Sequence record: PZ386967.1
Origin: a phage
DNA length: 64,000 nucleotides
Strand: one strand, 5' to 3'
Numbering within the stretch: the first letter of the stretch is position 1; every line of letters starts with the position of its first letter. Positions 1,998-61,942 of this stretch are shown one piece after another. The notes under the pieces were generated by a model. The model was not told the origin of the DNA, ran no database searches, and saw only the letters and a list, made by a program, of their open reading frames with translations. The translations under genes were made by a program, and so were the position numbers.

Positions 1998-2006
1998 CTA
2001 TTTAGG
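1998..2006 (-). promoter_or_regulatory. late-promoter-like motif CTAAATAGCC
   Basis: Same CTAAATA core as upstream of the structural genes at 40.4-62 kb; spacing to the ATG is about 34 nt. Confidence 0.4.
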
Positions 2007-24771: not shown

Positions 24772-24807
24772 GATAATATCCTCGCTTTATAGGCGAGGAT
24801 ATTTATA

Positions 24808-33572: not shown

Positions 33573-33584
33573 TGTGAAGAAATA

Positions 33585-34097: not shown

Positions 34098-34109
34098 GGG
34101 GTATTTAGG
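34098..34109 (-). promoter_or_regulatory. late-promoter-like motif CCTAAATACCCC
   Basis: Same CTAAATACCCC as upstream of the tailspike genes, here on the minus strand ahead of the 33611..34069 gene. Confidence 0.4.
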
Positions 34110-34213
34110 CTTCCCGCTTGGCGAGGTCTGGTTTGTACAGGACGCCTCTCGGAAATATTGGAGGAAGGTTTTCATAGATACCCCACACGGATTGTATGGG
34201 GTATTCAGGAGGG

Positions 34214-37389: not shown

Positions 37390-37466
37390 TGGTGATCCTG
37401 ATTGGGTTTGAACCAATGACCAATGAATTATGAGTTCACTGCTCTAACCGACTGAGCTACAGGACC
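37390..37466 (-). tRNA. tRNA-Met (anticodon CAU; initiator, elongator or Ile2 not resolved)
   Basis: Acceptor GGTCCTG/CAGGATC, D-arm TAGCTCAGTCGGTTAGAGCA, anticodon loop CTCATAA, T-loop GGTTCAAACCC, encoded CCA. Confidence 0.8.
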
Positions 37467-37469
37467 AAA

Positions 37470-39285: not shown

Positions 39286-39432
39286 GAGCTACACTGCCCA
39301 CAGCAGTGCGGACGAACCTGAACTCAAAACCGGATGCGCCGAAGTGGGCGTCTGTTTACCGGACTGATCGGGTCGACCCAGGAGAGAGCAGGTAATCCCG
39401 ATCAGAAGGATGAGGAGTAACATCATGTAAAA
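39286..39432 (-). CDS. small hydrophobic peptide (48 aa, below the ORF-track cutoff)
   Basis: Hand-translated MFYMMLLLILLIGITCSLLGRPDQSGKQTPTSAHPVLSSGSSALLWAV with GGAGGG SD 6-8 nt upstream. Confidence 0.3.
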
Positions 39433-39492
39433 CATAGTGTTCCCTCCCTTCCATGCAAATAACTTTACTGCAATTATTTATTGAATAAAGCG

Positions 39493-40062
39493 TTATTTTA
39501 ACACTTCTAACTTCACAACACGACGCAGAAGGTAAACATATTCGCCAGCAGCTTCATGCGTCATATAATGGGTAGAAGGTGTGGAATGAGTGTTCTGGGT
39601 TTCTTTTAATCCAACGCGTTCAGCCCAACCATTAATAGAGTTTCCATAGAAACCGATAATCGCGCCAAAATAAATGCGCCCGCTTTCTGGCTCTAAAACG
39701 TAGTTGACAGTGAAGCAAATGTCCGAACGAATAGACTCCAGTTTCATACCAACACGACCTTCAGAGAATTCGTTACGAACATATAAATGACGGAAACGAT
39801 TACGCCGCGCTTGTGATGATTCTTCCATTTCTTGTCGAAGCGAAGAAGTTATGTCAATATTAAATGAAAATGTTGGATTTCGTAAATCAGAACGGGCCAA
39901 CTCTAAGGCAGATTCAATAACGCGACGGAAATTGATACTTTTACCTGTCAGGCGTTTCACTTCTTCGGTGATTGTTCCAAAAGGGATTTTCGTGGCGCGT
40001 TCCCCTTCGTATTTTGCTAACAAAGGAATAATGTGTTTCATAATTGCTGTGTTAATGTGCAT
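39493..40062 (-). CDS. hypothetical protein in an AT-rich island
   Basis: 189-aa ORF; ATG with GAGG SD; flanks are AT-rich. Confidence 0.45.
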   Translation of the reverse strand: MHINTAIMKHIIPLLAKYEGERATKIPFGTITEEVKRLTGKSINFRRVIESALELARSDLRNPTFSFNIDITSSLRQEMEESSQARRNRFRHLYVRNEFSEGRVGMKLESIRSDICFTVNYVLEPESGRIYFGAIIGFYGNSINGWAERVGLKETQNTHSTPSTHYMTHEAAGEYVYLLRRVVKLEVLK

Positions 40063-40380
40063 TCCGGAGCCTCACTCGATTGATTAAATGTCTCCGTTAT
40101 TATATTGGGAGTATGTTTATTGAATATAAACACAGGAATGACCAACAAAATAGGAGCGCGGTTTATTAATAGGTAAAAACTACTTTTCTACAACATCAAG
40201 AAACTGTATCCTAACGCAGTGCCCTTCGAGTTGTGAGTGTCAACGAACAACGAGAAGCAGCCTCCATGGCTGTGGAATGGTGCTGCCCGCATAGGGCGGT
40301 GTTACGAGCGAGGGCGTCAGCCCCCTCGCGAGTTATATTCGAATAAATTAAACGCGCGCGAGAGTTTTGATTCCCGTTGG

Positions 40381-40388
40381 CTAAATAT
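40381..40388 (+). promoter_or_regulatory. late-promoter-like motif CTAAATAT
   Basis: Located 40 nt upstream of the GGAG SD and ATG of the gp6-like gene. Confidence 0.4.
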
Positions 40389-40427
40389 CTTCAACACCAT
40401 ATTCAAACTCAGGTGATGGAGATTATC

Positions 40428-42206
40428 ATGGCCACGCAAACAGTCCCTTCACTCGATGTCAGGGCTTTCGAGTATCTTATCAAGAAGCGCATGAAAGCTG
40501 ATCCAACTTTCAAGGATTATGACTTTGAAGGTTCTGGTCTCAGTGCAATCGTGCGTATCTTGGCCTCGGATGCCAACTCTATCGGGTTCATGCAGAACAT
40601 GCTGAATGGCGAAAGCCATCTTCACTCTGCTCAACAGCGTTCTAATGTCGGTCTTGCGGCCGGGTTCTTGTCGTACACCCCTCACAACTACCAGGCGGCG
40701 TACCTGTACGCAAACGTCACAGTCACTCCATATGACGCCAGCACGGCTCCGGACACGATTATAATGGATCGCCGCGCGATGTTCATTGGGGCGAAGGATG
40801 GCAAATCCTACAACTTCACGGTTGACCAACCTGTGAGTGCCTCTCTTGTAGACGGCTCTTACAAGTTCGAGAACATCAAACTCGTACAGGGCAACTGGCT
40901 ATACAAGTCCTATGACGTGGAAGGCAGCGCGATCTCTACCTATGTGATCCCATCTTCTTCCGTGGACATCGACCATATGGTGGTGCAGGTGCAGGAATCT
41001 GAGACATCTGACGTGCGGTCTACCTTCTCACGATATGTCAGCCCGTTCGATTTGAGCCAGTATGCGCAACTCTACTTCGTTGAGCTGGGGTTGGACGGGA
41101 TGTATACGTTCGAATTCGGTGATGGGTATATCTGTAAGCGAGTAGAAGACGGGAACGTCGTGTACCTCCAGTATCTGGAGACAGCTGGTGCGGACGGCAA
41201 TGACATCACTGCCTTGTCCTCCGCGTCTTCCATCGGGGGATTCAACCTTGTAGATGTTGAGCTGGTGTCAGAACGTTCTTCCGGTGGTGCGGACCCGGAG
41301 AGCATTGAGGACATCAAGCGCCTTGCTCCGCTGGCTTATCAGGCTGAGGGTGCGGCGGTAGCTGAAGTCGATTATGCTGTGTTGACCGAGCGTCTGTTCT
41401 CCAACGTCTCCCGCGCCAAAGCATATGGCGGAGACACGCTCTCTCCGCCCGACTCCGGATACGTTTACATTGCTGTGGTGCCTTCTGTTGGTGAGACGCT
41501 CTCGGACGCCGAGAAGGCAGATATCGTGGCGAAGTTGGACAAGTACAATGTGGGCACGATCACACCCAAGATTGTCGACGCTGAACTGACTTATGTTGAT
41601 GTCACCACCCGCGTGTTCTGGGATCCGACTTCCACGACTTACACCGAAGAGCAGTTGAAGACAGTCGTGAAGAACGGTGTTGTCAACTGGGGCTTGGGGA
41701 ACCTAGAAGGATTCGACGAACTGTTCGATAAAGAGCAGTTGCAGTCGGCCATCACCGACATGGACAGATCGATAGTGTCAAACATCACTTCTGTGAAGTA
41801 TAAGCGCCATTTCAAGCCAGACTATGGGGTACTGGACAGCTTCACATTCGATTATGGGCGCTCGATTGCGTCTGGTTCTGTGCGTATCAGTGGGTTTAAG
41901 CCGCTTCCGGCCGAGGTCGAATTCACTTACTACATACGCGACGTCAGTGGTGTCCTGAATATGTACAAGGTGAGTACAACAGACACGACCAAGGAATATC
42001 TGGTACAAGCTGTTGGAATGGTTGATTATGTGACTGGCGTTGTTGAACTCCAGCGTATCATAGTATCCAACTACAACACTGAGGGTGTGACAATAATTGT
42101 GTCTCCAGACGGTCTTGACCAGAACATACAGGCCACACAGAATCAGGTGCTCCGCATCGGTGCTGTAACTGTGGAGCCGGAGGTGCGTTATGTCCAAAGA
42201 TCTTAA
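40428..42206 (+). CDS. 6: baseplate wedge protein (T4 gp6-like, Baseplate_J family)
   Basis: N-terminal DYDFEGSGLSAIVRILA matches recalled T4 gp6 (DYDFEGSRLNVLCDLLA); start moved to ATG 40428 with GGAG SD (ORF-track start is TTG). Confidence 0.7.
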   Translation: MATQTVPSLDVRAFEYLIKKRMKADPTFKDYDFEGSGLSAIVRILASDANSIGFMQNMLNGESHLHSAQQRSNVGLAAGFLSYTPHNYQAAYLYANVTVTPYDASTAPDTIIMDRRAMFIGAKDGKSYNFTVDQPVSASLVDGSYKFENIKLVQGNWLYKSYDVEGSAISTYVIPSSSVDIDHMVVQVQESETSDVRSTFSRYVSPFDLSQYAQLYFVELGLDGMYTFEFGDGYICKRVEDGNVVYLQYLETAGADGNDITALSSASSIGGFNLVDVELVSERSSGGADPESIEDIKRLAPLAYQAEGAAVAEVDYAVLTERLFSNVSRAKAYGGDTLSPPDSGYVYIAVVPSVGETLSDAEKADIVAKLDKYNVGTITPKIVDAELTYVDVTTRVFWDPTSTTYTEEQLKTVVKNGVVNWGLGNLEGFDELFDKEQLQSAITDMDRSIVSNITSVKYKRHFKPDYGVLDSFTFDYGRSIASGSVRISGFKPLPAEVEFTYYIRDVSGVLNMYKVSTTDTTKEYLVQAVGMVDYVTGVVELQRIIVSNYNTEGVTIIVSPDGLDQNIQATQNQVLRIGAVTVEPEVRYVQRS

Positions 42207-43044
42207 TAACGGACACAATGGGGTGAAATATGAAACCCCATTGTTTTACCAGAATGAATTCCCAGTATTCATCGAGTTTATGGATACGTTCTTCAACTGG
42301 TTGTATCGCCAGCAGGGATTCACCGAAGAGGAGATCTTGGCGTATCTGGCAGACACTGGTGGCTGGGTGAACCCAAATACGGATCAGTCTCCTATTGAGC
42401 AGTTGATTGACATCAAGAAGCGCAAGACGCCAGGTACTGAGGCCAAAGACTTCTTGGAAGACAAGTTCCTGACGCGCACGTTTGAGAACATGATGGCGCT
42501 AGACTTCGAAGATTTGCTGGACGTGGACGGTCGGCCATTAATCTCAATGGAAGACAAGAACGAACGCATCGACGATTGGTATGCTGATTTTGGATTCCAG
42601 AGAACGGTTGATAAGTCCTTCCTGGAGTTCGGGAAGTTTGTGCCAGTTGGTTCGGACAGTTTGGTGACTTCAGACGGAGACACTCTCTCTGTGTATGTCG
42701 AGGGAACTGAACGCCGGACACTGGACCATGTACGCTGGTTGAAGTTACTTAAACACATTTATCGCATTCGCGGGACGAAGAAAGCGATTGAATTGTTCTT
42801 CTGGATTTACTTTGGTTGCCCAGTGAGTGTGTATTATCCCAAGGAAGAAATTGGTGGCCTGGATGACAACTTTGAATGTGACGGCGCGACAGGAATGCGT
42901 GACGATTACTACTATGATGAATTCACGTATGTGATAAGAGTTCCTGGCAACGTATCTGATTTTGAAGGTGTGTTTGATCGCGTCTTCCGTCAGCATTTCC
43001 ATCCTGCTGGGTTTACTGTATTCCTAGAAAGTTCAAGGAGTTAA
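42190..43044 (+). CDS. putative baseplate protein
   Basis: 284-aa ORF translationally coupled to the gp6-like gene; GGAGGTG SD; function from synteny only. Confidence 0.4.
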   Translation: MSKDLNNGHNGVKYETPLFYQNEFPVFIEFMDTFFNWLYRQQGFTEEEILAYLADTGGWVNPNTDQSPIEQLIDIKKRKTPGTEAKDFLEDKFLTRTFENMMALDFEDLLDVDGRPLISMEDKNERIDDWYADFGFQRTVDKSFLEFGKFVPVGSDSLVTSDGDTLSVYVEGTERRTLDHVRWLKLLKHIYRIRGTKKAIELFFWIYFGCPVSVYYPKEEIGGLDDNFECDGATGMRDDYYYDEFTYVIRVPGNVSDFEGVFDRVFRQHFHPAGFTVFLESSRS

Positions 43045-43045
43045 A

Positions 43046-44236
43046 ATGGCCGATTTTCTGAGTCGATACACAGGTCAGCAGATTGATGCAATCCTTTCTT
43101 CTGTTGACGATAAAATAAGCAAGACTGATGTTGTCAACGATTTCGCTGTTGATGATCCGTTGTTCCCTCCTTCAGCTCATTTGACATACGAGCTGAAGCG
43201 TTCTGTGGATAAAATCTACGACACACTGGAAAACAAAGTGATCCGCACCGACGGTGGTGAACAAACGATCAACGGGAACAAGACCTTTGCTGCGTTATTG
43301 ACAGCCAACGGCGGCCTGACTGTTCCGGCTGGGAAGAAACTGTCTATCGCGGATGAGCCTATAGTAGCGACAGATGGTGTTAACCTGAGCATGTTGAGAA
43401 AGCATGGTGTCAGTGAAGACACTACCCCGCCTGGTTCTGGTTTGGCTGGGGAGTTGTTGACATCCGGATATTACAAATTCAATTTGGATTTCACCAGATT
43501 GTCTGCGTATACCGGATCAACGTTGCCGACTTCAATTCCAGTACAAACAGATTCTGGAGCGCGTTATTGGACAATGACTGCATTTTTTGATGCGTTGTTC
43601 GCAGACAACCGATTTAATGGATATGTGACAACGACAGCGTATGACGCAGATATGCTGAGTCTAGAGTCCCAGATTAATAACATCAACACATCGTTGAACG
43701 GGAAAGTCAACACATCGACTTACAACACTAAGATGGCGTCGTTGGATTTGAGTATCTCCAATATCAATACGTCTCTGGGTAATAAAGTCGAGGTCAGCAC
43801 GTACAACACGAAGATGACATCTCTGGATAACAGCATCAGTTCTCTTTCCAGTGATAAAGTTAATGTATCAACGTATAATGCCAAGATGACCTCTGTCGAC
43901 AATAGTTTAGGGAACGCCGTTTATCGTACCAAAACGAATTTGTCTTCTTACACGGTTTCGGCTTCTGGGACGACGGCTCTTCCAGATTTTGATTTGGTGA
44001 ACCTTTGTCAAATACTGGTGACCGCGCAATGGGGAACAGGTAACGTTGTTGATACATATCGAGTAACCATAACTCGCGACGGAACTATCAAATCGGAGTT
44101 GTTGGTTCAGAAAAGTACGAGCGGTACAGTGACGTTCACAGGGGCTGTGGTGGGTGGTAAATTGAGAATTTCCGTTGTTAATGCGAATACAACAACTGCT
44201 TGTTCGGTCGATTATTCTATTGTAGCTTCTTTCTAA
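43046..44236 (+). CDS. tail-fibre-like protein with tandem ~25-aa repeats
   Basis: Three to four tandem repeats of the form VxxSTYNTKMxSLDxSIS...; start 2 nt after the previous stop. Confidence 0.5.
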   Translation: MADFLSRYTGQQIDAILSSVDDKISKTDVVNDFAVDDPLFPPSAHLTYELKRSVDKIYDTLENKVIRTDGGEQTINGNKTFAALLTANGGLTVPAGKKLSIADEPIVATDGVNLSMLRKHGVSEDTTPPGSGLAGELLTSGYYKFNLDFTRLSAYTGSTLPTSIPVQTDSGARYWTMTAFFDALFADNRFNGYVTTTAYDADMLSLESQINNINTSLNGKVNTSTYNTKMASLDLSISNINTSLGNKVEVSTYNTKMTSLDNSISSLSSDKVNVSTYNAKMTSVDNSLGNAVYRTKTNLSSYTVSASGTTALPDFDLVNLCQILVTAQWGTGNVVDTYRVTITRDGTIKSELLVQKSTSGTVTFTGAVVGGKLRISVVNANTTTACSVDYSIVASF

Positions 44237-44243
44237 AGTGAAA

Positions 44244-44283
44244 ACTAAATACCCCTAGATGAAACGAACACATTTAGGGGTAT
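44244..44283 (+). promoter_or_regulatory. late-promoter-like motif ACTAAATAC plus 5' leader hairpin
   Basis: CTAAATA core, then inverted repeat ATACCCCTA / TAGGGGTAT whose 3' arm holds the only G-rich SD-like sequence before ATG 44289. Confidence 0.45.
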
Positions 44284-44288
44284 TTGAA

Positions 44289-47200
44289 ATGGCTAATAAA
44301 CCAACACAGCCTGTTTTCCCTCTCGGTCTGGTGGCTGAAGAGCAGTCTACTTTGGCTGGTGTCGTCAACACGGGTACGATTGAGCATGGACCAGATGCTG
44401 TCCTGACTTTACCCGAGGGTAATGCCAGCGCAGGACTCCCGTCTTCCGTTCGCTACAATGCCGACTCCGACGAATTTGAGGGCTTCTATGAAAATGGTGG
44501 ATGGTTGCCGCTGGGTGGCGGTGGTATCCGCTGGGAAGTCCTTCCGCATGCCTCTACGGTAATGCTCACTGAAGGGCGAGGCTATCTCATTAATAATACC
44601 ACAGGGGCATCTACAGTGGTTCTCCCTTCCCCTACGCGTATTGGGGATTCCGTTACTATTTGTGATGCTTATGGGAAATTTGCCACTTACCCATTGACCG
44701 TGTCTCCTTCTGGAAATAATTTGTATGGCTCCACTGAAGACATGGCTATAACAACTGATAACGTATCAGCAACGTTCACTTGGTCTGGACCTGAACAAGG
44801 TTGGATTATTACATCCGGCGTCGGTCTTGGCCAAGGCCGTGTCTACAGTCGTGAAATCTTTACAAAAATTTTGGCGTCTGAAACAAGTACTGTCACTCTC
44901 AATACTCCACCAACAATCGTGGACGTGTATGCTGACGGAAAACGCCTTGCGGAATCCAAATATTCACTAGATGGGAATGTAATCACTTTCAGTCCTTCTT
45001 TGCCAGCCAGCACAGAACTTCAGGTGATTGAATATACTCCTATTCAATTGGGTAATGGCGGTGGTTCTAGTTCTTCTACGATTACTTGGGTCTATAATGG
45101 GGGTTCAGCGATTGGCGGTGAAACCGAAATCACGTTGGACGTCGTTGTTGATGATGTTCCGGCCATTGATATAAACGGAAGTCGTCAGTATAAAAATCTG
45201 GGATTCACATTCGATCCATTAACCAGTAAAATCACTCTGGCGCAAGAACTGGAACCAGAAGATGAAGTTGTTGTAATCATCAATGGAACACCAAACATCT
45301 ATAATCAAATTGATCATACTTTGCGGGAAGTGGCTCGTGTAACCAATGTTAAAGATACAGAGGTCGTTTATTTTAGTGTTGGTGCTGTGCTAAGCGGGTA
45401 TAAAGTTATCTATGATAAAGTAACACAGAGATCATATTTTATTCCAGAGCTACCGACTGGAACCACGGCAGTCAGCCTTAGTTCTTCGGCTGTACTTGTG
45501 CATTCTGCTGGTAGTGTTGATCTGGGCGCATTAGCCGTATCTCGTGAGGAGTATGTGACCTTACCTGGTTCATTCGATACAGGTGTAACTGTTAATACCA
45601 AGAATGAGTTGGTTGTGAGTAACGATATTAAATATCGTTGGGATGGTTCTGTACCCAAAGTAGTCCCTCCAGAATCTACCCCATTGGGTACAGGAGGTGT
45701 TGGTCCAGGGGCATGGCTTGTAGTTGGTGTTGTTGGATTAGAGCAACGTTTAGCCTCCTGGAAAGGTTCTTCTCTTATTGATTCCGGTAGTCTGTCTCTT
45801 TACAAAAAGAGCGGTGTATTCGGTGATGGTGGGAATGTATCCGATAAATATCAGGTTGTTCTACATTCAGATGGGTTCTGGTACAAGTACAATGGGACAC
45901 TACCTGTTAGTTATGGTGCTGCCCCAGACTCTTCTTGGACTAACGTTGGTAAGCTAACAGGGTTTAATGAACACTCACCTGAGAATTTTGGTGCAATCCC
46001 CAATGACCCTAGTTTTGACTGTTTACCTGCTATAAAACTAGCTATAGCCACAGGTACATTAAATCTGAATGGGAATTCTACCTACCACGTAACGGATGAG
46101 GTTGTTATACCTTCTTACTTACGTGGGAATCTAAACGGGGCAACAATTAAAGCAATTGGCTCCGTATGGCCTACGTTAAAAGCTGTTGTACGCGTTAGTA
46201 AATTTCCTGTCGGTACAGCAACAGTGGATGTGGCTAATACAGAGAATCAAGTGCGAGGATTACGCTTAATCGGTAGCTTAAACGTAGACTGTGCAGATAT
46301 TGCATCATATGGTTTTTATGCACGTCTTCTGTGTGCAGAATCTGAGATGGGTAGCATCTATGCATATAATGCTAATAGATATGGCATTGTAATGTTTGCT
46401 TGCTGGTATTTTCAAATGGGCACTCTCCATGCAAACAACTGTGCAAGGGGTATGGCATTAGGTTATTCAACAGAAGGTGAGCAAGGGGATACCTATGTGA
46501 ATGCTACACACTTCCCTCACATTAGTGCATGGGGTACTGATAAGTCTACGGGACTAGGTTATGACCCAATCACGGATGATGCGAGTAAATATACAATAGG
46601 TGCTGGTATTATCTTAGGTCGTGGTTTGTCTACCAGTGTTGGTGTGATTTGCTCTGAGAATACGGCAGGTGCTGGGGTAGTAACAATGGACCCTGCTGCG
46701 TGGGACATTGGGGTCATGTACTGTGAGGGTAATAGTAAAGACTTTACTCAAGAGGGTGAACCCAAGGTGTCATTGCTGTCATCCAAGGCCAACAGTGAAA
46801 GTCATACGCTTACCATCTCCACACTCCACCTTTCCGCAGGTTGTGGCATTTTAACCAGAAGCAATCAAGAGCGTGTGCTAATCAGAAGTCTATATCGCTT
46901 TGATAACGCAAAAACCTTCCACTCTTACTGCACAGCAGACACAGTAGAGGTTGGTAGCAGCAACTACTATGTACTTAACGGGCATAATTACAATGCACCT
47001 GCTGCACTTATTAAGGAACCGCTCAATGTAGACTTTGTGCGTTCAGGGTTGACTTTAAGTGAGTGGACATCTACAGTTATCGGTCATTTTGCTGGTAGTA
47101 CAGCAGAACAACAGCTTTATGTTAAGCTCCCAGCAAGTCCCAGCGGCCTAGATTTACAGATAGATAGTGAGGATGGGACGGAATATATCACTGTAACTGG

Positions 47201-47342
47201 TACAGATTTTAAAGTCTCTCTAACTAAGAAAAGATTGCCTAGTAAACTGTATGAGATAAGGATTGGTGGGGTGTCTACAGTAGCTGTTACCGATTGTTCT
47301 ATTCTAGTCAGAAGTAAAAAAGGTGATTGGTATTACTGGTAG
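44289..47342 (+). CDS. tailspike protein with N-terminal adaptor region and internal conserved anchor module (TSP4-like)
   Basis: 1017 aa from ATG 44289; internal about 150-aa module (VVYFSVGAVLSGYKVIYDK...HSAGSVDLGALAVSREEYVTLPGSFDTGVTVNTKNELVV...) shared with three downstream genes; Asn/Gly-rich C-terminal half consistent with a beta-helix. Confidence 0.65.
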   Translation: MANKPTQPVFPLGLVAEEQSTLAGVVNTGTIEHGPDAVLTLPEGNASAGLPSSVRYNADSDEFEGFYENGGWLPLGGGGIRWEVLPHASTVMLTEGRGYLINNTTGASTVVLPSPTRIGDSVTICDAYGKFATYPLTVSPSGNNLYGSTEDMAITTDNVSATFTWSGPEQGWIITSGVGLGQGRVYSREIFTKILASETSTVTLNTPPTIVDVYADGKRLAESKYSLDGNVITFSPSLPASTELQVIEYTPIQLGNGGGSSSSTITWVYNGGSAIGGETEITLDVVVDDVPAIDINGSRQYKNLGFTFDPLTSKITLAQELEPEDEVVVIINGTPNIYNQIDHTLREVARVTNVKDTEVVYFSVGAVLSGYKVIYDKVTQRSYFIPELPTGTTAVSLSSSAVLVHSAGSVDLGALAVSREEYVTLPGSFDTGVTVNTKNELVVSNDIKYRWDGSVPKVVPPESTPLGTGGVGPGAWLVVGVVGLEQRLASWKGSSLIDSGSLSLYKKSGVFGDGGNVSDKYQVVLHSDGFWYKYNGTLPVSYGAAPDSSWTNVGKLTGFNEHSPENFGAIPNDPSFDCLPAIKLAIATGTLNLNGNSTYHVTDEVVIPSYLRGNLNGATIKAIGSVWPTLKAVVRVSKFPVGTATVDVANTENQVRGLRLIGSLNVDCADIASYGFYARLLCAESEMGSIYAYNANRYGIVMFACWYFQMGTLHANNCARGMALGYSTEGEQGDTYVNATHFPHISAWGTDKSTGLGYDPITDDASKYTIGAGIILGRGLSTSVGVICSENTAGAGVVTMDPAAWDIGVMYCEGNSKDFTQEGEPKVSLLSSKANSESHTLTISTLHLSAGCGILTRSNQERVLIRSLYRFDNAKTFHSYCTADTVEVGSSNYYVLNGHNYNAPAALIKEPLNVDFVRSGLTLSEWTSTVIGHFAGSTAEQQLYVKLPASPSGLDLQIDSEDGTEYITVTGTDFKVSLTKKRLPSKLYEIRIGGVSTVAVTDCSILVRSKKGDWYYW

Positions 47343-47350
47343 TATAATAA

Positions 47351-47380
47351 AAAGCCCCCAATTTTGGGGGCTTTTATTAT
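47351..47380 (+). terminator. rho-independent terminator
   Basis: Hairpin AAAGCCCCC-AATTTT-GGGGGCTTT followed by a T-run. Confidence 0.6.
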
Positions 47381-47414
47381 ATAGAGTTTACTGTTTTCAT
47401 TACCCTGATTGATA
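47374..47414 (+). repeat. about 40-nt intergenic repeat, copy 1
   Basis: TATATAGAGTTTACTGTTTTCATTACCCTGATTGATA; near-identical copy at 55206..55246. Confidence 0.6.
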
Positions 47415-47597
47415 ATGCTGTTGGCTCTCTCGGGTTGTCATCAAACGGGTATAAGAACTTTATAGGTGATATCAATGATGGGTCAGCGTATTTTTATTTC
47501 ACCAACATAGATGGATCAAGAATATCGGGGTCGTCTGTTTATGATGGGTGGGGTGATGTTGGTATACATTTTGAAATGTGTCTGGAATAGGAGTGTC

Positions 47598-47696
47598 AAA
47601 CCCCGCTTTGGCGGGGTTCTTATTATACCTTTGTTCATAAATTTGATTAGTTCAGACTAAATACTCCATATTGGTCATCCTTTATGGGGTATTATC
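47598..47696 (+). repeat. duplicated tailspike upstream cassette, copy 1 (hairpin, late-promoter-like motif, leader hairpin)
   Basis: About 85% identical by eye to 50575..50675; includes GACTAAATAC at 47655-47664 and leader hairpin ATACTCCATA / TATGGGGTAT at 47661-47692. Confidence 0.6.
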
Positions 47697-50126
47697 ATGA
47701 TTTCTCAATTCAATCAACCACGCGGCTCCACTTCCATAGAAGTTAACAAACAATCTATCGCTCGAAATTTCGGTGTCAAAGAAGACGAAGTCGTTTATTT
47801 CACTGCTGGTATTGATCTCAGTGGATTTAAAGTAATTTATAATGAGTCTACCCAACGGGCTTATTCTCTTCCTTCAGGTATTGTTTCAGGAACGACTGCG
47901 ATAAGTCTGGATAAAAGAGCTATCCTCACTCATTCAGCGGGTTCTGTTGATCTTGGGGAATTAGCAGTAAGCCGCGAAGAATACGTAACCTTACCTGGTT
48001 CATTTGATACTGGTGTAACTGTTAATACTAAGAATGAATTAGTTGTCTTTACCGATGGTAAGTATCGCTGGGATGGGGCACTGCCTAAAGAAGTGCCTGC
48101 TGGTTCAACCCCTACATCAACCGGTGGTGTTGGAACAGGTGCATGGGTTAGTGTTGGTGATGCGAGTTTGAGGTCAATAGCTCAATACAGAGCCAATACC
48201 ATTGAAGATTTAAAATCATTGCCATTTGCGGTTGGAGATATTGTTAATGTCGCTGGGTATTATGATGTTTTTGATGGGGCACAGCATTACCGAGTGATTA
48301 GTGGTACAGATGATGGAACAGGGGTTCAGCTCAATAATGGTTTGTGGGCAAATATTATCATTAATGGCGATGCTTGTGTAGATTGGTTTGGCGCTAAAGG
48401 TGATGGTGTTGCAGATGACTGGTGGGCAATCAATAAAGCTATTAACGCCTCGCTCTCTACCGATTATCAGGGTGGTTGGTGGGAGACGTCAAGTAGAAAC
48501 CCTAAATTTAAAGTTAGACTTAGTAGACGCTCTTACAGAATCACTAAACAGATTTTACTACCCCCTTACATAGAGTTTTATGGTATGGGTTCGCGCTGGT
48601 ATTTTTCGGGTGATAATAATTCTCGCTTAATCCCTGATTTTGATAATCCGTTGCAATTCGCTGTGAAATCTGCTAGCTATATTGTTGAAACCGGTGAACT
48701 AGCACCTGAGGGGTGGTATTCTGGGGTGGTTTGGGTTGACCCAAAAAAACTAACGACTTGTCATGGTATTAAAACTTATGGATATAGCATCGAACCAACA
48801 AAACAAATTTTAGGCGGTATAAGACTGATAGCGAGTCCAATTTCTCATGTATACGATATATTCATAACAAATGTTGATTTTGGAGTTTTACTGAATTGTT
48901 CATGGGTGAGTAAGGTTGACGTTAAAACTCATCATAATAAATGCGGGGTTATGTCTAGTCATGATGGTAATAACACTCACGTGGATGGTTATTTTACAGG
49001 GACAGAAATCAAACCGCTTGATGGTAATCCTTACCTCAACCCAATAGAGTCTTTAGACTCTACAACAGGGCTCCAAGACCAATCTATATCTGACCCAGAC
49101 AGTAAAATAGGTGTGATTTTTTATTGGTCACAGGGGTCAACAAGTACGAATATGACGTGTGAGGGTAACACTATTTCGTTGGCTGTGGCTAAGGGTGGTG
49201 CTGATGTAAGGTGTTTATACTCAGAACGTAATTCAGATTGTACATTTACTGGGTACAGTTCACTAGTTACAATTGGTGAAATAACTGGCATTGGTGACGG
49301 TGGAACTTTTGAGCTTGGTGTAAATAATACTATTTCGTTAGACAAAGACACTCAGTATGGTGTCGCTAAACGATTTAAGTACGTGAGCGAGTGGGGTAAT
49401 AAGCTGTTTATGCCCTCTAGCTGGAAAGAATACACCAAAGGTTGTTTAGTTGAAGGGTTTGATTATAGCGAAATTTTTGTAGATGCGATAAATGGAGATG
49501 ACACCAATGTTGGCTCCAGTCTTCACCCTGTGAAAACTTTGGAGAGAGCTCTAACGCTTGTGAATTCAGTGTATACTACATCTGACTTGCTAAGCTCAGT
49601 GCCGAGGGATAGAGTAATAAAGTTAGTAGGCTCAGCAACATACTACCCAGACGGACAGCATAGGTTCGTGGGCGGCTCGTTAAAAATTACAAAAGCTGAT
49701 AACTCACGACCGACTGTTAATTTATCAAAACCAATCCGATTTAACGACACATCCCTAGTATTTGAGGAAGTAAATTTAGTGCGACCAACAGATGACCACG
49801 GGAATAATGAGAATGGCGCAATTTTCCTTGAGGATGGGTGTAATGAAGTCAGATTGAAAAACTGCGATCTAAGTCTACAAAAATTCAGCTTCTTATATCC
49901 TACTTGGGGCTTTGCTGGAATATGTACCTTGGTGTTAAACGGGGTTAGTGTTACTGGTGATTCAACAACAAGAATGATACAAACAGCTGATGGATATCAT
50001 GATTTGCACTTGTTTAATGTAATTAGCTACGAGACAACTTACACTGGAGGAATAGAGTCAAGACCAGATAAAGGCTATGATATACCAGCAGATAGACGTG
50101 GTCATATATTGGGTGTATCAATATAA
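47697..50126 (+). CDS. tailspike protein with N-terminal anchor module (TSP1-like)
   Basis: 809 aa; the conserved module sits at the N-terminus; a 50-nt stretch (48114-48163) is identical to 51597-51646; Asn/Gly-rich C-terminal region. Confidence 0.65.
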   Translation: MISQFNQPRGSTSIEVNKQSIARNFGVKEDEVVYFTAGIDLSGFKVIYNESTQRAYSLPSGIVSGTTAISLDKRAILTHSAGSVDLGELAVSREEYVTLPGSFDTGVTVNTKNELVVFTDGKYRWDGALPKEVPAGSTPTSTGGVGTGAWVSVGDASLRSIAQYRANTIEDLKSLPFAVGDIVNVAGYYDVFDGAQHYRVISGTDDGTGVQLNNGLWANIIINGDACVDWFGAKGDGVADDWWAINKAINASLSTDYQGGWWETSSRNPKFKVRLSRRSYRITKQILLPPYIEFYGMGSRWYFSGDNNSRLIPDFDNPLQFAVKSASYIVETGELAPEGWYSGVVWVDPKKLTTCHGIKTYGYSIEPTKQILGGIRLIASPISHVYDIFITNVDFGVLLNCSWVSKVDVKTHHNKCGVMSSHDGNNTHVDGYFTGTEIKPLDGNPYLNPIESLDSTTGLQDQSISDPDSKIGVIFYWSQGSTSTNMTCEGNTISLAVAKGGADVRCLYSERNSDCTFTGYSSLVTIGEITGIGDGGTFELGVNNTISLDKDTQYGVAKRFKYVSEWGNKLFMPSSWKEYTKGCLVEGFDYSEIFVDAINGDDTNVGSSLHPVKTLERALTLVNSVYTTSDLLSSVPRDRVIKLVGSATYYPDGQHRFVGGSLKITKADNSRPTVNLSKPIRFNDTSLVFEEVNLVRPTDDHGNNENGAIFLEDGCNEVRLKNCDLSLQKFSFLYPTWGFAGICTLVLNGVSVTGDSTTRMIQTADGYHDLHLFNVISYETTYTGGIESRPDKGYDIPADRRGHILGVSI

Positions 50127-50574
50127 ATAATTGATATTATGCTTCATGGTGATTGTGGGTGATTCACCCACGATTACTTTTAGGTACTACAGTTGATAAT
50201 TCAGATTGATACATTGGATTGGCAGGTGCGTGTAATACTGCACTTGAATTTTGATACATAAATCCGGCACCCTCCCTCACCCTCAACGCGCCCAATTGCC
50301 CCCATAGGAGGCTCATTACCTCCTTGTGGGCTTTGTTGTTTTTGTGGCTGCTGTTGCTGACTACATTCTATGTATGGATGTATCTCATCATACTAAGCAT
50401 TATCTAAGAGCCATCCTATGATACGACCCCATTGGGATTCCTAACTTCACAACTACGGTAATATTATGAATTAATCAGGTGAACTGCTCCTAGTCAGACT
50501 GGAGGAACGATTGAAGACTCTGTTTGATAATCAGGCAAGGGATAGATAGGATCGTGGTTTTGGAGAGTAAAATC

Positions 50575-50675
50575 AAAACCCCTCTTCGGCGGGTTCTTGT
50601 TATACCTTTGTTCATAAATTTATTAGTTCAGACTAAATACCCCATATTGGCAAATCCTCTATGGGGTATCTTCAA
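50575..50675 (+). repeat. duplicated tailspike upstream cassette, copy 2
   Basis: Contains GACTAAATAC at 50631-50640 and perfect 10-bp leader hairpin ATACCCCATA / TATGGGGTAT at 50637-50669; the ORF-track ATG at 50661 lies inside the hairpin arm. Confidence 0.6.
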
Positions 50676-53180
50676 ATGACCAGAAACGTCGAGAGCATCT
50701 TTGGAGCGGTCGTAACAGCTCCGCACCAGATTCCATACACTTACACAGCAACGGGTGGAGAGAAGTTTATCTCCCTCCCTTTCTACCCTGTCACTGGTAT
50801 AGTCACAATCAACGGTGGCATGCAAGTTCCGTTAGACAACTTTGAAATCGATGGAAATACGTTGAATCTCGGACGCGCATTATCCAAAGGTGACGTTGTG
50901 TTCTGTCTGTTTGATAAGATTCTGTCTCCAGAAGATTATAAAACCGGGGTTCGAATCTATAAGTTTCAGGCTATAGGAGGTGAAACCGAGTTCACTCCTG
51001 ATTACACATATTATGGAGTCCAATCTCTTTATATCGGTGGTGAGTACAAAACACCCGAAATTGAATATTCCTATGACAGCACGACAGGGAAAGTGTCTTT
51101 ACAAACTGCGCTGACTGCAGGCGTTTGGGTAGTCGCTGAAATGTCTGTTAAACAACCGAATATCAGTCCGTTGTTTGACCGAAGTATTCAAGAAATCGCT
51201 CGTGCAACTAACGTTAAGGACAGTGAAGTAATTCTTAGCACTGACACTACGCAATTATTGAATGGTAAAAAGATTGTCTACTCTGTTAGTGAGCAGAAGT
51301 CATATGGGTTACCTTCATTACCCTCTAACATATACATCTCATCCGTTAGTAATGGGCAGTTAACGTACAATCCAGGTAATATTACTGTTACTTTGTTACC
51401 TACTCATCAAGAGTCGAATACCAGAGAATTGTGGAGACGTTTACTTGCAGAAGCAGGTTTATCTCTCGTTGCTGGTAGCTTTGAAGAAGGTGCAACAGTT
51501 AATAGTGAAACGGATGCTGTTTGGCACATCGCTGGTGGTCAGTGCTATACGTGGGAGGGTGCACTACCTAAAGTTGTCCCCGCTGACTCAACCACTACAT
51601 CAACCGGTGGTGTTGGAACAGGTGCATGGGTTAGTGTTGGTGATGCTTCATTGAAGTCAGAATTGGCTAAACCTACAGGAGCAGGTTTTTCAGGTTTTGA
51701 TAAGTCAATTGATTACGAAACTGGTACTGTTGGCAATGCGCTTAAGAAAATTATAAATGTCAACCCGGATATGTATCCATCATTACAGGATGCGATTGAT
51801 GCTGCGGCAGCTTTAACAGGTTTAGAACATGCACCAAGTAGTGCTGCTAACCATCCTGACTGGCTACAACCTAACACTGTAAGCAAAGTTATCAGGCTGA
51901 ATGGGAAGAAATATCCTATCAGTACGACACTACACATTCACGGAGATGTTAGCATTGATGCTGGTTTCGGTGGGGTATACCTGACAGATGACTTCATAGC
52001 AGACTCATCTGGTTATGCTGTAAAGTGTGATAAAGGTACAGGTAATCAATACGCTGGGCACATTAGCAATCTTTTAATTGATGCCCGTGCAAAAACTGTT
52101 AATGGATTTAAAATATCTGATGGTTATGCCAACAAGTTAGATGGCATTTACGTAGCCAATATTGATGGTCATGGCATCCATATTGCTGGCGGTATGGGTG
52201 TGCACCTATTGAAGTTTTATGCTGTTGGTGTATTAAAACCAACTAATCCACTCAGCACAGCCCACATTGTTGAAGGTAGCGATCATCAGGTTAGTATGGG
52301 TGAAGGTCGTTATTTCCGATTTGGTACCTGGGTTCGTGGTGGTGGCAATAACAGAATTAGTAAGGTGCACAACTGGGGCATGTATGACGATACAGTCACT
52401 GACCAGAACTCAAGGATGAAATGCTGCTTTGTTGTACAGAACTCAATAAACAATTCCTTCAATCAATGTTTTGCAGATTCTCCATCAAAATGGGACTACG
52501 CGAAAGCTAATTTAGATCCTGTAGATGGTTATATTAACGGCGGGATTGGCTTTTTTATTGATGGTGGAGCCACCGGTAATACGTTCTCTCAATGCCAGAC
52601 GTTTGTGAATATGAATGCGTTTAATGACGCAGGGCTATCTTCATATACGGCATCACTAATGCCATTCGCCGTTGGTAGTATCAACTGTTCATTCATTGAG
52701 TGTGAAAACTCAAACTCACCAGCATGGGTGGCAAGGCTGATAACTCATATTTACTCTGCGGACCAGACATTTACTAACATACTTGCAGCTAAGAATTTTG
52801 TTGGTATAGAGTATGATATGGTTTGCAATAGTACAATTTTCAGGAAAAATGTTGGAGTTCCTGTATTGGTAAGAAATCCAAAGTTCGAGACGCCAACAGC
52901 AAGTTATGCGCCTGACTTTTCAGACGCATCTTACATCGCAGCTACAGTTACAGGAGATGTAACAATAACTCCAGCAGTATTAACAAATACACTAATTGGT
53001 TATGTTGAGGTTCTTTTGGCTGTCTATTCAACAACATCTAAAACAATAACATTTGGTGCAAATGTTAAATTAGCAAGCAATACCCCATCTTTGACAGCAG
53101 CTGGAACACAAGTTTTTAGGTTGTCAACAACTGATGAAGGAGCAACCTGGTTTTGTAAGTTCGAGAGTGCTTACTCGTAA
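50676..53180 (+). CDS. tailspike protein with N-terminal adaptor region and internal anchor module (TSP2-like)
   Basis: Start moved to ATG 50676; conserved module at about residues 170-330, including TSTGGVGTGAWVSVGDASL identical to the 47697 gene. Confidence 0.6.
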   Translation: MTRNVESIFGAVVTAPHQIPYTYTATGGEKFISLPFYPVTGIVTINGGMQVPLDNFEIDGNTLNLGRALSKGDVVFCLFDKILSPEDYKTGVRIYKFQAIGGETEFTPDYTYYGVQSLYIGGEYKTPEIEYSYDSTTGKVSLQTALTAGVWVVAEMSVKQPNISPLFDRSIQEIARATNVKDSEVILSTDTTQLLNGKKIVYSVSEQKSYGLPSLPSNIYISSVSNGQLTYNPGNITVTLLPTHQESNTRELWRRLLAEAGLSLVAGSFEEGATVNSETDAVWHIAGGQCYTWEGALPKVVPADSTTTSTGGVGTGAWVSVGDASLKSELAKPTGAGFSGFDKSIDYETGTVGNALKKIINVNPDMYPSLQDAIDAAAALTGLEHAPSSAANHPDWLQPNTVSKVIRLNGKKYPISTTLHIHGDVSIDAGFGGVYLTDDFIADSSGYAVKCDKGTGNQYAGHISNLLIDARAKTVNGFKISDGYANKLDGIYVANIDGHGIHIAGGMGVHLLKFYAVGVLKPTNPLSTAHIVEGSDHQVSMGEGRYFRFGTWVRGGGNNRISKVHNWGMYDDTVTDQNSRMKCCFVVQNSINNSFNQCFADSPSKWDYAKANLDPVDGYINGGIGFFIDGGATGNTFSQCQTFVNMNAFNDAGLSSYTASLMPFAVGSINCSFIECENSNSPAWVARLITHIYSADQTFTNILAAKNFVGIEYDMVCNSTIFRKNVGVPVLVRNPKFETPTASYAPDFSDASYIAATVTGDVTITPAVLTNTLIGYVEVLLAVYSTTSKTITFGANVKLASNTPSLTAAGTQVFRLSTTDEGATWFCKFESAYS

Positions 53181-53184
53181 AACT

Positions 53185-53210
53185 AACCCCGCTTCGGCGG
53201 GGTTTCTTAG
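53185..53210 (+). terminator. terminator-like hairpin
   Basis: Hairpin AACCCCGC-TTCG-GCGGGGTT followed by TTCTTAG. Confidence 0.45.
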
Positions 53211-53228
53211 AAAAACAAAGAGGTCGTT

Positions 53229-55145: not shown

Positions 55146-55162
55146 GTAATAATCACTTAAAA

Positions 55163-55191: not shown

Positions 55192-55205
55192 CTTATTAAT
55201 AATAC

Positions 55206-55404: not shown

Positions 55405-55413
55405 ACTAAATAT
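55405..55413 (+). promoter_or_regulatory. late-promoter-like motif ACTAAATAT
   Basis: 42 nt upstream of ATG 55447, which has a GGAG SD. Confidence 0.4.
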
Positions 55414-61914: not shown

Positions 61915-61942
61915 GACTAAATACCTTCAAAATTGAGGGTAT
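61915..61942 (+). promoter_or_regulatory. late-promoter-like motif GACTAAATAC plus leader hairpin
   Basis: CTAAATA core followed by inverted repeat ATACCTTCAA / TTGAGGGTAT ending 5 nt before ATG 61947. Confidence 0.45.

What the first reader, a model, noticed from the sequence alone, without database searches (positions are those of the whole stretch)
44244..44291. Late genes share a CTAAATA motif followed by a leader hairpin that holds the ribosome-binding site
Upstream of the genes at 44289, 47697, 50676 and 61947 the same arrangement recurs: (G/A)ACTAAATAC (compare the T4 late promoter TATAAATA), then an inverted repeat ATACCCC...GGGGTAT of 8-10 bp starting inside the motif, whose 3' arm GGGG is the only SD-like sequence 9-12 nt before the ATG. 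The motif without this hairpin also precedes the genes at 40428 and 55447. The transcript would begin with a 5' stem-loop that partly sequesters the SD, suggesting coupled mRNA stabilisation and translational control. A hairpin with the same arms also lies at 34171-34198, downstream of the PLP-enzyme gene.
Basis: partly seen in the sequence, partly recalled or inferred. Interest (0 to 1): 0.55.

Follow-up and report, generated by a model that had tools for sequence, protein, structure and literature searches.

The report
Late promoters embedded in ribosome-site-masking hairpins
In this ViI-like (Ackermannviridae) phage, a known late-promoter-like box sits inside a hairpin that masks each gene's ribosome-binding site, the layout phage T4 uses for its lysozyme gene; RNA started at the box should lack the hairpin and be translatable, while read-through RNA should be masked.

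Summary
The window is an Agtrevirus genome segment. CTAAATA occurs nine times, and eight copies lie 30-47 nt upstream of a same-strand ATG, mostly of virion genes. Seven leaders carry a stable hairpin (-10 to -21 kcal/mol). Its 5' arm starts inside the box, and its 3' arm holds the only Shine-Dalgarno sequence.

Two sub-claims need correction:
- The gene at 40428 also has such a hairpin, with different arms.
- The 'orphan' hairpin lies at 34178-34204. On the minus strand it is the leader of a gene lost by internal deletion.

CTAAATAcCcc is already published as an Ackermannviridae regulatory motif. A T4-type late box spans -13 to -6, so transcription should start about 6 nt after it, at the loop end of the 5' arm. 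Late RNA would therefore lack the hairpin and have a free ribosome site. Only read-through RNA would fold.

This matches T4 genes e, soc, 49 and I-TevI. The T4 e leader (TATAAATACCTTC...GGAGGTAT) pairs in the same register. No start-site data exist for this family, so the mechanism is inferred. I rate it a new member of a known kind, of modest interest.

The parts
44245..44251 (+). CTAAATA late-promoter-like box upstream of tailspike 1 (ATG 44289). It lies 8 nt after the stop codon of the upstream gene (44234-44236), with no terminator between. Predicted start near A44257.
44246..44286 (+). 16-bp hairpin, UAAAUACCCCUAGAUG / CAUUUAGGGGUAUUUG. The 3' arm holds the SD GGGG.
   Evidence: -21 kcal/mol, z = -7.1. 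The same leader from the predicted start folds at only -0.9. Across genera the arms are invariant and the loop varies.
47657..47693 (+). CTAAATA box (47657-47663) plus hairpin 47660-47693 (AUACUCCAUA/UAUGGGGUAU) upstream of tailspike 2 (ATG 47697). A canonical terminator lies upstream at 47599-47618.
50633..50669 (+). CTAAATA box (50633-50639) plus hairpin 50637-50669 (AUACCCCAUA/UAUGGGGUAU) upstream of tailspike 3 (ATG 50676). A terminator-like hairpin lies upstream at 50575-50595.
   Evidence: In 15 distinct orthologues the arms are invariant and the loop varies.
61917..61942 (+). CTAAATA box (61917-61923) plus 9-bp hairpin 61921-61942 (AUACCUUCA/UGAGGGUAU) upstream of the neck / head-closure gene (ATG 61947). 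The stretch TAAATACCTTC is identical to the T4 gene e late promoter P1.
40381..40423 (+). CTAAATA box (40381-40387) plus hairpin 40387-40423 (AUCUUCA.CACC/GGUG.UGGAGAU; SD GGAG in the 3' arm) upstream of the gp6-like baseplate wedge gene (ATG 40428). A terminator lies upstream at 40308-40329.
55406..55412 (+). CTAAATA box upstream of the 1612-aa fibre-like gene (ATG 55447). Only a weak 6-bp pairing with the SD.
   Evidence: (z = -0.1)
34102..34108 (-). CTAAATACCCC box upstream of a 152-aa gene of unknown function (ATG 34069). No hairpin.
34178..34208 (-). Degenerate box CTGAATA (34208-34202; CTAAATA in relatives) plus 11-bp hairpin 34204-34178, then an ATG at 34175. This is the leader of a roughly 150-aa gene that is intact in Kuttervirus and Taipeivirus and reduced here to a frameshifted remnant (34175-34105).
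24776..24807 (-). Perfect T4 consensus TATAAATA (24807-24800), directly after the stop codon of the upstream gene, plus 10-bp hairpin 24802-24776 (AUAUCCUCGC/GCGAGGAUAU) upstream of a 55-aa ORF whose N-terminal segment looks hydrophobic on reading the sequence (24771-24604).
1999..2005 (-). CTAAATA box upstream of the gp48-like baseplate tail-tube-cap gene (ATG 1964), inside a 50-bp divergent intergenic region. No clear SD hairpin.

Best explanation
(A/G)CTAAATA, and once TATAAATA, is the -10-type box of the phage's gp55-like late sigma factor. By analogy with T4, and from the sequence signature after the box, transcription starts about 6 nt downstream of it.

At a subset of late genes the box and the pyrimidine-rich stretch after it form the 5' arm of a hairpin. 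The 3' arm of that hairpin is the gene's own Shine-Dalgarno sequence plus the following UAU. In this window the subset comprises three tailspikes, the gp6-like wedge, the neck gene, a 55-aa ORF and one relic leader.

The start site falls at the loop end of the 5' arm. RNA made from the gene's own late promoter therefore lacks that arm and has a free ribosome-binding site. RNA that reads through from upstream contains both arms, folds, and masks the ribosome-binding site.

The result is that translation of these genes depends on firing of their own late promoter. This is the mechanism shown experimentally for T4 genes e, soc, 49 and I-TevI.

Shown here: the box, its placement, the hairpins, their register and their conservation. 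Inferred: the start site, the existence of read-through RNA, and the effect on translation.
For: 1. **Box placement and gene classes.** Eight of nine CTAAATA copies lie 30-47 nt upstream of same-strand ATGs. The genes are the gp6 wedge, three tailspikes, a fibre, a neck gene, gp48 and one unknown.
2. **Census in a close relative.** The same box precedes the sheath and scaffold genes, and TATAAATA precedes a tail-tube gene and a virion structural protein gene, there without hairpins. It also precedes structural-region genes of a distant Vibrio phage whose gp6 is 38% identical. The box is therefore independent of the hairpin.
3. **No second promoter element.** Sequence upstream of the box diverges completely between genera.
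4. **Late transcription machinery.** A near-identical relative is annotated with a late sigma factor, a late promoter transcriptional regulator (gp33-like) and a DNA polymerase processivity factor (clamp). Published work reports gp55/33/45 homologues in AG3, CBA120 and ViI.
5. **Geometry.** The T4 box spans -13 to -6. In 24 sites the positions +1 to +4 after the box are purine in only 3-7 of 24, while +5 to +7 are purine in 14-19 of 24. The 5' arms run from about -8 to +2.
6. **Loss of structure.** Leader folding energy drops from -10 to -21 kcal/mol to -1 to -6 when the leader begins at the predicted start.
7. **Specific pairing.** The cognate arm/SD duplex ranks first among about 90 leaders at 6 of 10 sites. 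Arm sequences differ between sites (ATACCCC, ATCTTCA, ATATCCTCGC, ATACCTTCA), each matching its own SD variant (GGGG, GGAG, GAGGA, GAGGG).
8. **Conservation.** Across Agtrevirus, Limestonevirus, Kuttervirus and Taipeivirus the arms are invariant while loops and upstream flanks vary.
9. **Strand specificity.** From my reading of the stems, non-Watson-Crick positions are G.U in the mRNA sense in 5-6 cases and A.C in 1. This fits sense-strand RNA pairing.
10. **Direct comparison with T4.** The T4 gene e leader folds with the same register, UAUAAAUACCUUCU/AGGAGGUAUUAU, at -14.9 kcal/mol. The literature states that its late RNAs lack the 5' strand and are well translated, whereas longer RNAs are not.
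11. **Read-through is built in.** At 44245, 24807 and 34208 the box follows the upstream stop codon within 0-8 nt, with no terminator.
Against: - No transcription start site has been mapped for any Ackermannviridae phage in the searched literature. The whole argument depends on T4-like box-to-start spacing.
- The stretch after the box is C/T-rich, whereas T4 late promoters are A/T-rich there. Promoter mechanics may therefore differ.
- Several hairpin-bearing genes follow other late genes (tailspike 1 follows the gp6 operon) or follow terminators (tailspikes 2 and 3, gp6). The T4 rationale of silencing a late gene on early RNA is therefore not obviously needed.
- Orthologues show conservation and one-sided changes only. 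No double compensatory substitutions were seen. Covariation evidence comes only from paralogous sites.
- About half of the box-bearing genes have no hairpin.
Confidence: 0.55

Rival explanations
1. Late transcripts start upstream of, or at the base of, the hairpin and so carry a 5'-terminal stem-loop. This protects the mRNA from decay and partly throttles translation.
For: The hairpins are stable and close to the expected 5' end. Protection of mRNA by 5' stem-loops is an established mechanism (general knowledge). No start-site data exclude it.
Against: - The 5' arm includes 1-5 nt of the box itself, and a -10-type element lies upstream of its start.
- Nothing upstream of the box is conserved that could act as an alternative promoter.
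- The pyrimidine-to-purine switch at +5 to +7 after the box marks the likely start inside the arm.
- The T4 gene e hairpin, in the same register, is experimentally absent from late RNA.
Confidence: 0.1
2. The hairpins act mainly as weak intrinsic terminators or 3'-end stabilisers for RNA arriving from upstream. They overlap the next promoter, so each gene becomes its own transcription unit. SD masking would then be a by-product.
For: - The pattern CTAAATACCCC...GGGGTAT also picks up obvious A-tract / GC-stem / U-tract terminators in unrelated viral contigs.
- In Kuttervirus and Taipeivirus the stem is followed by TATTTTCAAATG.
- This function too would act only on read-through RNA, so it can coexist with the main explanation.
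Against: - None of these hairpins was among the terminator-like sites listed for 33000-52900, which covers five of the seven hairpins. Reading the sequences, only 3-4 of the 8 nt after each stem are T.
- Canonical GC-rich terminators already sit 40-60 nt upstream of three sites.
- The invariant features are the SD in the 3' arm at proper spacing and the UAU that pairs with the box. A terminator needs neither.
Confidence: 0.15
3. Incidental complementarity. The late promoter prefers a pyrimidine-rich stretch between box and start, the SD is purine-rich, and so they pair by accident with no selected function.
For: Positions +1 to +4 after the box are pyrimidine-rich even at several sites without a hairpin.
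Against: - Pairing extends beyond the pyrimidine stretch, into the box (ATA with UAU) and past the start, up to 16 bp.
- Cognate pairs beat about 90 non-cognate SD regions.
- Arms are invariant across genera while loops drift.
- Sites in distant relatives are not pyrimidine-rich after the box.
Confidence: 0.1
4. A DNA-level palindrome: either the binding site of a dimeric regulator, or a cruciform that modulates late promoter opening.
For: The inverted repeats overlap the promoter. I-TevI is a precedent for a protein binding over a T4 late promoter.
Against: - Arm sequences differ between sites, so there is no common operator.
- Each arm matches only its own SD.
- G.U pairs are tolerated in the sense orientation, as read from the stems. 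In DNA these would be mismatches.
- Loops of 4-13 nt are variable.
Confidence: 0.05

Closest known systems
T4 gene e (lysozyme) leader, and the analogous leaders of T4 soc, 49, I-TevI/II/III, segB and Aeh1 mobE
   Same: - A late promoter box lies in the 5' strand of a helix whose 3' strand is the SD.
- The register is identical: pairing begins at the ATA of the box and ends at the UAU just after the SD (T4 e: TATAAATACCTTC...GGAGGTAT; here: CTAAATACCTTC...GAGGGTAT).
- The mechanism is documented: long RNAs are masked, while late RNAs lack the 5' strand and are translated.
   Different: - The box is CTAAATA rather than TATAAATA at all sites but one.
- In T4 the device is used for late genes embedded in early or middle transcription units and for homing endonucleases. 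Here it sits at core late structural genes (tailspikes, gp6, neck), some of them behind terminators or behind other late genes.
- Nothing here has been tested experimentally.
The Viunalikevirus/Ackermannviridae conserved motif 'CTAAATAcCcc'
   Same: The exact motif is present at 44245, 50633 and 34108(-). It is quoted as one of two 'unique regulatory motifs' of these phages in PMC7283392. From memory, it was first described by Adriaenssens et al. 2012 (Arch Virol), which I could not read.
   Different: The held literature treats it as a linear motif. I found no mention that the 'cCcc' extension is the anti-SD arm of a hairpin.
T4 late promoters (gp55/gp33/gp45-dependent)
   Same: An 8-bp A/T box about one helical turn upstream of the start, no -35 element, upstream of virion genes on either strand.
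   Different: - C replaces A at the second position of the box.
- The stretch between box and start is C/T-rich rather than A/T-rich.

Membership tests
T4-type late promoter (gp55-dependent) | 8-bp box matching TATAAATA | tested here: met
   Seven of eight positions match at all CTAAATA sites. A perfect TATAAATA lies at 24807-24800(-).
T4-type late promoter (gp55-dependent) | No conserved -35 or other upstream element | tested here: met
   The upstream flank diverges fully between genera while the box is invariant.
T4-type late promoter (gp55-dependent) | Phage encodes gp55, gp33 and gp45 homologues | tested here: met
   Not inside the window. A 96%-identical relative (PQ306799) is annotated with a late sigma factor, a late promoter regulator and a clamp. 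Literature for AG3, CBA120 and ViI agrees.
T4-type late promoter (gp55-dependent) | Located upstream of late (virion) genes | tested here: met
   gp6, gp48, three tailspikes, a fibre and a neck gene. Sheath, scaffold and tail tube in the relative.
T4-type late promoter (gp55-dependent) | A/T-rich segment between box and start | tested here: not met
   C/T-rich at +1 to +4 after the box, against the T4 description.
T4-type late promoter (gp55-dependent) | gp55-dependent initiation about 6 nt downstream of the box | not testable with these tools
   Only indirect evidence: a purine (A) peak at +5 to +7 preceded by pyrimidines in 24 sites.
T4 gene e-type RBS-masking hairpin with embedded late promoter | SD and/or AUG sequestered in a stable helix | tested here: met
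   Seven leaders fold at -10 to -21 kcal/mol. P(SD paired) is 0.78-1.0.
T4 gene e-type RBS-masking hairpin with embedded late promoter | [quoted passage not shown] | tested here: met
   5' arms start 1-5 nt inside the box. The register is the same as in the T4 e leader folded here.
T4 gene e-type RBS-masking hairpin with embedded late promoter | Longer transcripts from upstream promoters cross the site | tested here: inconclusive
   The gene layout implies read-through at 44245, 24807 and 34208 (no terminator; the box follows the stop codon). Terminators precede 40381, 47657 and 50633. No RNA data exist.
T4 gene e-type RBS-masking hairpin with embedded late promoter | Translation only from the late-promoter RNA | not testable with these tools
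   Needs reporter, toeprint or ribosome-profiling data.
Intrinsic (rho-independent) terminator | GC-rich stem followed by a U-tract | tested here: not met
   No listed terminator-like site in 33000-52900 overlaps these hairpins. Reading the sequences, 3-4 of the 8 nt after each stem are T. Canonical terminators are present nearby.
Any Rfam RNA family | Match at the gathering threshold | tested here: not met
   Only four tRNAs in the window.

The most novel reading that the evidence does not exclude
Ackermannviridae may have generalised the T4 gene e trick into a family-wide insulator for late structural genes. On this reading the 'cCcc' tail of the family signature motif is an anti-Shine-Dalgarno arm rather than a promoter determinant. 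Each tailspike cassette (box, leader hairpin, conserved N-terminal anchor) would then be translated only from its own promoter. Tailspike output would be independent of genomic context, and cassettes could be swapped between phages without expression artefacts.
Probability: 0.3. Interest if true: 0.45.

Novelty: new member of a known kind. Interest (0 to 1): 0.3.

Why it matters
- **A testable model.** Transcription in Ackermannviridae is essentially unstudied. A 2024 review of the family contains no occurrence of 'promoter' or 'transcript'. This analysis gives start-site predictions to the nucleotide for how the late genes, including the host-range-determining tailspikes, are switched on.
- **A reinterpreted motif.** It offers an explanation for part of a motif that has been quoted as a taxonomic signature.
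- **Practical consequence.** Engineered or chimeric tailspike cassettes should keep the native box and leader. A tailspike gene driven by read-through from a foreign promoter may be poorly translated unless the 5' arm is removed.
- **Limits.** The principle has been known from T4 since the 1980s, so this extends a known device and adds no new mechanism.

Tried and rejected
- **Literature on start sites.** Searches for mapped start sites or RNA-seq in Ackermannviridae found nothing usable.
- **Papers not held.** The original 2012 Viunalikevirus paper and McPheeters 1986 were unavailable. The motif's first description, and exact T4 e 5'-end positions, come from secondary sources and memory.
- **Terminator hypothesis.** Tested with the consensus scan; none of the listed terminator-like sites overlaps these hairpins.
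- **RNase III site.** Considered and set aside. All stems but one are 9-11 bp, too short for a typical RNase III substrate (general knowledge).
- **RNase E site (AU-rich box followed by a stem).** Considered and rejected, for two reasons. The box occurs without hairpins, after terminators and in a 50-bp divergent intergenic region where new initiation is required. It also matches the T4 late consensus.
- **Covariation among orthologues.** The leaders are almost invariant across four genera, so only one-sided changes were seen. No covariance model was built.
- **Collection-wide pattern scan.** It returned Ackermannviridae genomes with several matches each. It also returned unrelated contigs whose matches are ordinary terminators. 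The bare pattern is therefore not diagnostic.
- **Rfam.** No family matched.
Full report
**What the window is.**
- The 64-kb window is a segment of an Agtrevirus (Ackermannviridae, ViI-like) genome.
- It is 96-97% identical over 24 kb to Escherichia phage A221, Enterobacter phage fGh-Ecl02 and Salmonella phage vB_CECAV_050. The last is classified Ackermannviridae; Aglimvirinae; Agtrevirus.
- The finding lies at the start of the tailspike cluster (tailspike and tail-protein genes at 44289-55145, followed by a large fibre-like gene at 55447-60285). By PHROG matches and the relative's annotation, the genes downstream of the motif copies are a gp6-like baseplate wedge subunit (40428), three tailspikes (44289, 47697, 50676), a 1612-aa fibre-like protein (55447), a neck / head-closure protein (61947), a gp48-like tail-tube cap (1964, minus strand) and a 152-aa protein of unknown function (34069, minus strand).

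**Checking the observation.**
- CTAAATA occurs nine times, against 4.9 expected from shuffles. The count alone is unremarkable.
- Eight of the nine copies lie 30-47 nt upstream of an ATG on the same strand. The chance of that is about 1e-13.
- The hairpins at the four named genes are real:
  - 44246-44286: 16 bp, -21 kcal/mol, z = -7.1.
  - 47660-47693: -16.6 kcal/mol.
  - 50637-50669: -16.3 kcal/mol.
  - 61921-61942: -10.2 kcal/mol.
- In each, the 3' arm carries the only SD-like sequence, 7-9 nt before the ATG.
- Three corrections:
  1. The gene at 40428 also has this architecture with different arms (40387-40423; AUCUUCA.CACC/GGUG.UGGAGAU; about -17 to -20 kcal/mol, z = -4.6). Only 55447 is nearly hairpin-free.
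  2. The 'same-arm' hairpin lies at 34178-34204.
  3. A further member lies on the minus strand at 24807-24776: a perfect TATAAATA plus a 10-bp stem, upstream of a 55-aa ORF.
- The association is specific:
  - The segment that starts inside each box pairs better with its own SD region than with any of about 90 other leaders at six of ten sites. At a seventh site only its paralogue does better.
  - Motif-bearing leaders are more structured, and their SD more often paired, than the other 81 leaders (p = 0.002 and 9e-5).

**What the motif is.**
- CTAAATAcCcc is already in the literature. It is quoted as one of two 'unique regulatory motifs' of these phages (PMC7283392). From memory, it goes back to the 2012 Viunalikevirus proposal, which I could not read.
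- Four lines of evidence support reading it as a T4-type late promoter box:
  1. It matches TATAAATA at seven of eight positions, and at all eight once.
  2. Nothing upstream of it is conserved between genera, whereas the box and leader are nearly invariant.
  3. It precedes virion genes on both strands, including inside a 50-bp divergent intergenic region (1965-2014), where read-through cannot supply both genes.
  4. The near-identical relative is annotated with a late sigma factor, a gp33-like regulator and the sliding clamp. This agrees with published statements for AG3, CBA120 and ViI.
- In the rest of the relative's genome, CTAAATA precedes the sheath and scaffold genes, and TATAAATA precedes a tail-tube gene and a virion structural protein gene. 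None of these has an SD hairpin.
- CTAAATA also precedes three structural-region genes, without such a hairpin, in a distant Vibrio phage whose gp6 is only 38% identical.
- So the box stands on its own, and the hairpin is an optional addition.

- In every hairpin the 5' arm begins at the last one to five nucleotides of the box and ends 6-9 nt after it.
- T4 late boxes occupy -13 to -6, about one helical turn upstream of the start.
- In 24 distinct sites from this window, its relatives and the Vibrio phage:
  - positions +1 to +4 after the box are purine in only 3-7 of 24;
  - positions +5, +6 and +7 are purine, mostly A, in 14, 16 and 19 of 24.
- This pyrimidine-then-purine step is the usual mark of a start site, and it holds at sites without hairpins.
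- A start there removes almost the whole 5' arm. Leaders fold at -10 to -21 kcal/mol when they include the box, and at only -1 to -6 when they begin at the predicted start.
- The late transcript would therefore not begin with the stem-loop. It would be the one RNA species that cannot form it. Only RNA arriving from upstream would fold and hide the SD.

**Comparison with T4.**
- This is the arrangement described for T4 genes e, soc, 49, I-TevI/II/III and segB, and for Aeh1 mobE. The late promoter lies in the DNA encoding the 5' strand of an SD-sequestering helix. Long early or middle RNAs are masked, and late RNAs lack the 5' strand and are well translated.
- I fetched and folded the T4 gene e leader.
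  - UUAUAAAUACCUUCU pairs with AGGAGGUAUUAU at -14.9 kcal/mol.
  - The register is the same as here: the ATA of the box pairs with the UAU just after the SD.
  - The stretch TAAATACCTTC is shared with the neck-gene site at 61917.

**Evidence that the pairing is selected, and acts in sense-strand RNA.**
- Arm sequences differ among paralogous sites, and each matches its own SD variant:

| 5' arm | 3' arm with SD |
|---|---|
| ATACCCC | GGGGTAT |
| ATCTTCA | TGGAGAT |
| ATATCCTCGC | GCGAGGATAT |
| ATACCTTCA | TGAGGGTAT |

- Among orthologues from Agtrevirus, Limestonevirus, Kuttervirus and Taipeivirus, the arms are invariant while loops, upstream flanks and coding sequence vary. Examples are five loop variants at the 34208-type site and several at the tailspike 3 site.
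- Changes within arms are one-sided (U.G to C-G, or G-C to G.U). From my reading of the stems, non-canonical positions are G.U in the mRNA sense five or six times and A.C once.
- No double compensatory change was seen. Orthologue covariation is therefore absent and the case rests on conservation plus paralogue comparison.
- No Rfam family matches.

**Rivals.**
- *Terminator or 3'-stabiliser.* This is the most serious rival.
  - For it: the bare pattern CTAAATACCCC...GGGGTAT also retrieves ordinary terminators from unrelated viral contigs, and some relatives have TATTTTC after the stem.
  - Against it: none of these hairpins appears among the scan's terminator-like sites for 33000-52900. Canonical terminators already lie 40-60 nt upstream of the gp6, tailspike 2 and tailspike 3 sites (40308-40329, 47599-47618, 50575-50595, plus 47349-47375). 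The conserved features are those needed for SD masking.
  - It would in any case act only on read-through RNA and could coexist with masking.
- *Shared DNA operator.* Unlikely, because the arms differ between sites.
- *Incidental pairing.* A pyrimidine-rich spacer meeting a purine-rich SD does not explain pairing that extends into the box and up to 16 bp, nor the cognate specificity.

**What remains odd.**
- In T4 the device silences late genes that sit in early or middle units. That fits the 55-aa ORF at 24771, which is embedded in a long minus-strand gene array. It also fits the leader at 34208, directly after a PLP-enzyme gene.
- Tailspike 1, however, follows the late gp6 operon without a terminator, and tailspikes 2 and 3 follow terminators.
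- Why translation of these genes should be tied to their own promoters is not explained by the data. One possibility is insulation of exchangeable tailspike cassettes.
- About half of the box-bearing genes have no hairpin.

**The 'orphan' hairpin.**
- On the minus strand, 34208-34175 reads CTGAATA (CTAAATA in L010, L011, L015 and Klebsiella phage May), then an 11-bp hairpin, then ATG.
- In Kuttervirus and Taipeivirus that ATG opens a 149-152-aa gene (MKTFLEF...VLYKPGLAKR).
- The window retains only the first roughly ten codons in one frame and the last roughly twelve in another. This is an internal deletion.
- The hairpin is thus the leader of a lost gene, and its box has since picked up a mutation.

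**Verdict.**
- The late-promoter reading is supported and already published as a motif.
- The proposed role of the hairpin is inverted relative to what the geometry implies.
- The best explanation is a T4 gene e-type, promoter-embedded, SD-masking hairpin (confidence about 0.55, limited by the absence of any start-site data). It is a new member of a known kind.

Noticed in passing
window 34105-34175 (-): Remnant of a roughly 150-aa gene (MKTFLEF...VLYKPGLAKR) that is intact in Kuttervirus and Taipeivirus relatives. Only the N-terminal codons (one frame) and the C-terminal codons (another frame) survive. The promoter box upstream reads CTGAATA here but CTAAATA in relatives.
   Followed up: yes
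window 24604-24771 (-): A 55-aa ORF whose N-terminal segment looks hydrophobic and whose C-terminal part looks charged on reading the sequence (MLQDLLVYALPGAVVGFIAGALVF...; PHROG 3879, unknown function). It has a perfect T4-consensus TATAAATA and a 10-bp SD-masking hairpin, and sits inside a long minus-strand gene array. By position and size it could be lysis-related, as in the T4 e analogy. Not tested.
   Followed up: partly
window 35412-35455 (-): The PLP-enzyme (threonine-dehydratase-like) gene also has a strong SD-masking hairpin (CUCCUGUAGA...UCUACAGGAG; -16.8 kcal/mol here, -24.7 in Klebsiella phage May). It has no CTAAATA box; a TATACT hexamer overlaps the start of the 5' arm. This may be the same device built on a different promoter type.
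   Followed up: partly
window 40099-40124 (-) and 28987-29012 (-): Two copies of the other published family motif, TTCAAT-N14-TATAAT (sigma-70-like, presumed early), upstream of the minus-strand genes that start at 40062 and 28950.
   Followed up: no
window 1965-2014: A 50-bp divergent intergenic region with CTAAATAG on the minus strand (2005) and TTAAATAG on the plus strand (1976). The two boxes form an inverted repeat (CCUAAAUAG...CUAUUUAAGG), suggesting back-to-back late promoters for gp48 and a 204-aa gene.
   Followed up: no
window 47599-47656 and 50575-50632: Tailspikes 2 and 3 share a duplicated upstream module of about 60 nt (terminator, then CTTATTATACCTTTGTTCATAAATTT.ATTAGTTCAGA) ahead of the box. 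The module is conserved in Kuttervirus but not in Limestonevirus or Taipeivirus.
   Followed up: partly
window 42000-56000: The tailspike region has 41-46% G+C and positive GC skew, against about 50% G+C elsewhere. This fits horizontally exchanged receptor-binding modules.
   Followed up: no
loci L036, L037, L039, L057, L074, L083, L086, L100, L106, L111, L112, L114, L124, L131 (IMG/VR): Viral contigs (50-82 kb for those shown in the table) carry near-identical CTAAATACCCC(C/T)GA(G/T)...GGGGGTATTTTTATTAT elements that look like ordinary bidirectional terminators. They were retrieved only because the search pattern resembles an A-tract / GC-stem / U-tract.
   Followed up: no
L140 32019-32054 (-) (relative vB_CECAV_050, outside the window): Another strong member of the class (CTAAATACCCCCATCATCCATGGGGGTAT, -17.2 kcal/mol) upstream of a GTP-binding-domain protein. 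The annotated start codon there (32061) lies upstream of the box and is probably wrong; ATG 32019 is preceded by an SD-like G-run at normal spacing.
   Followed up: partly
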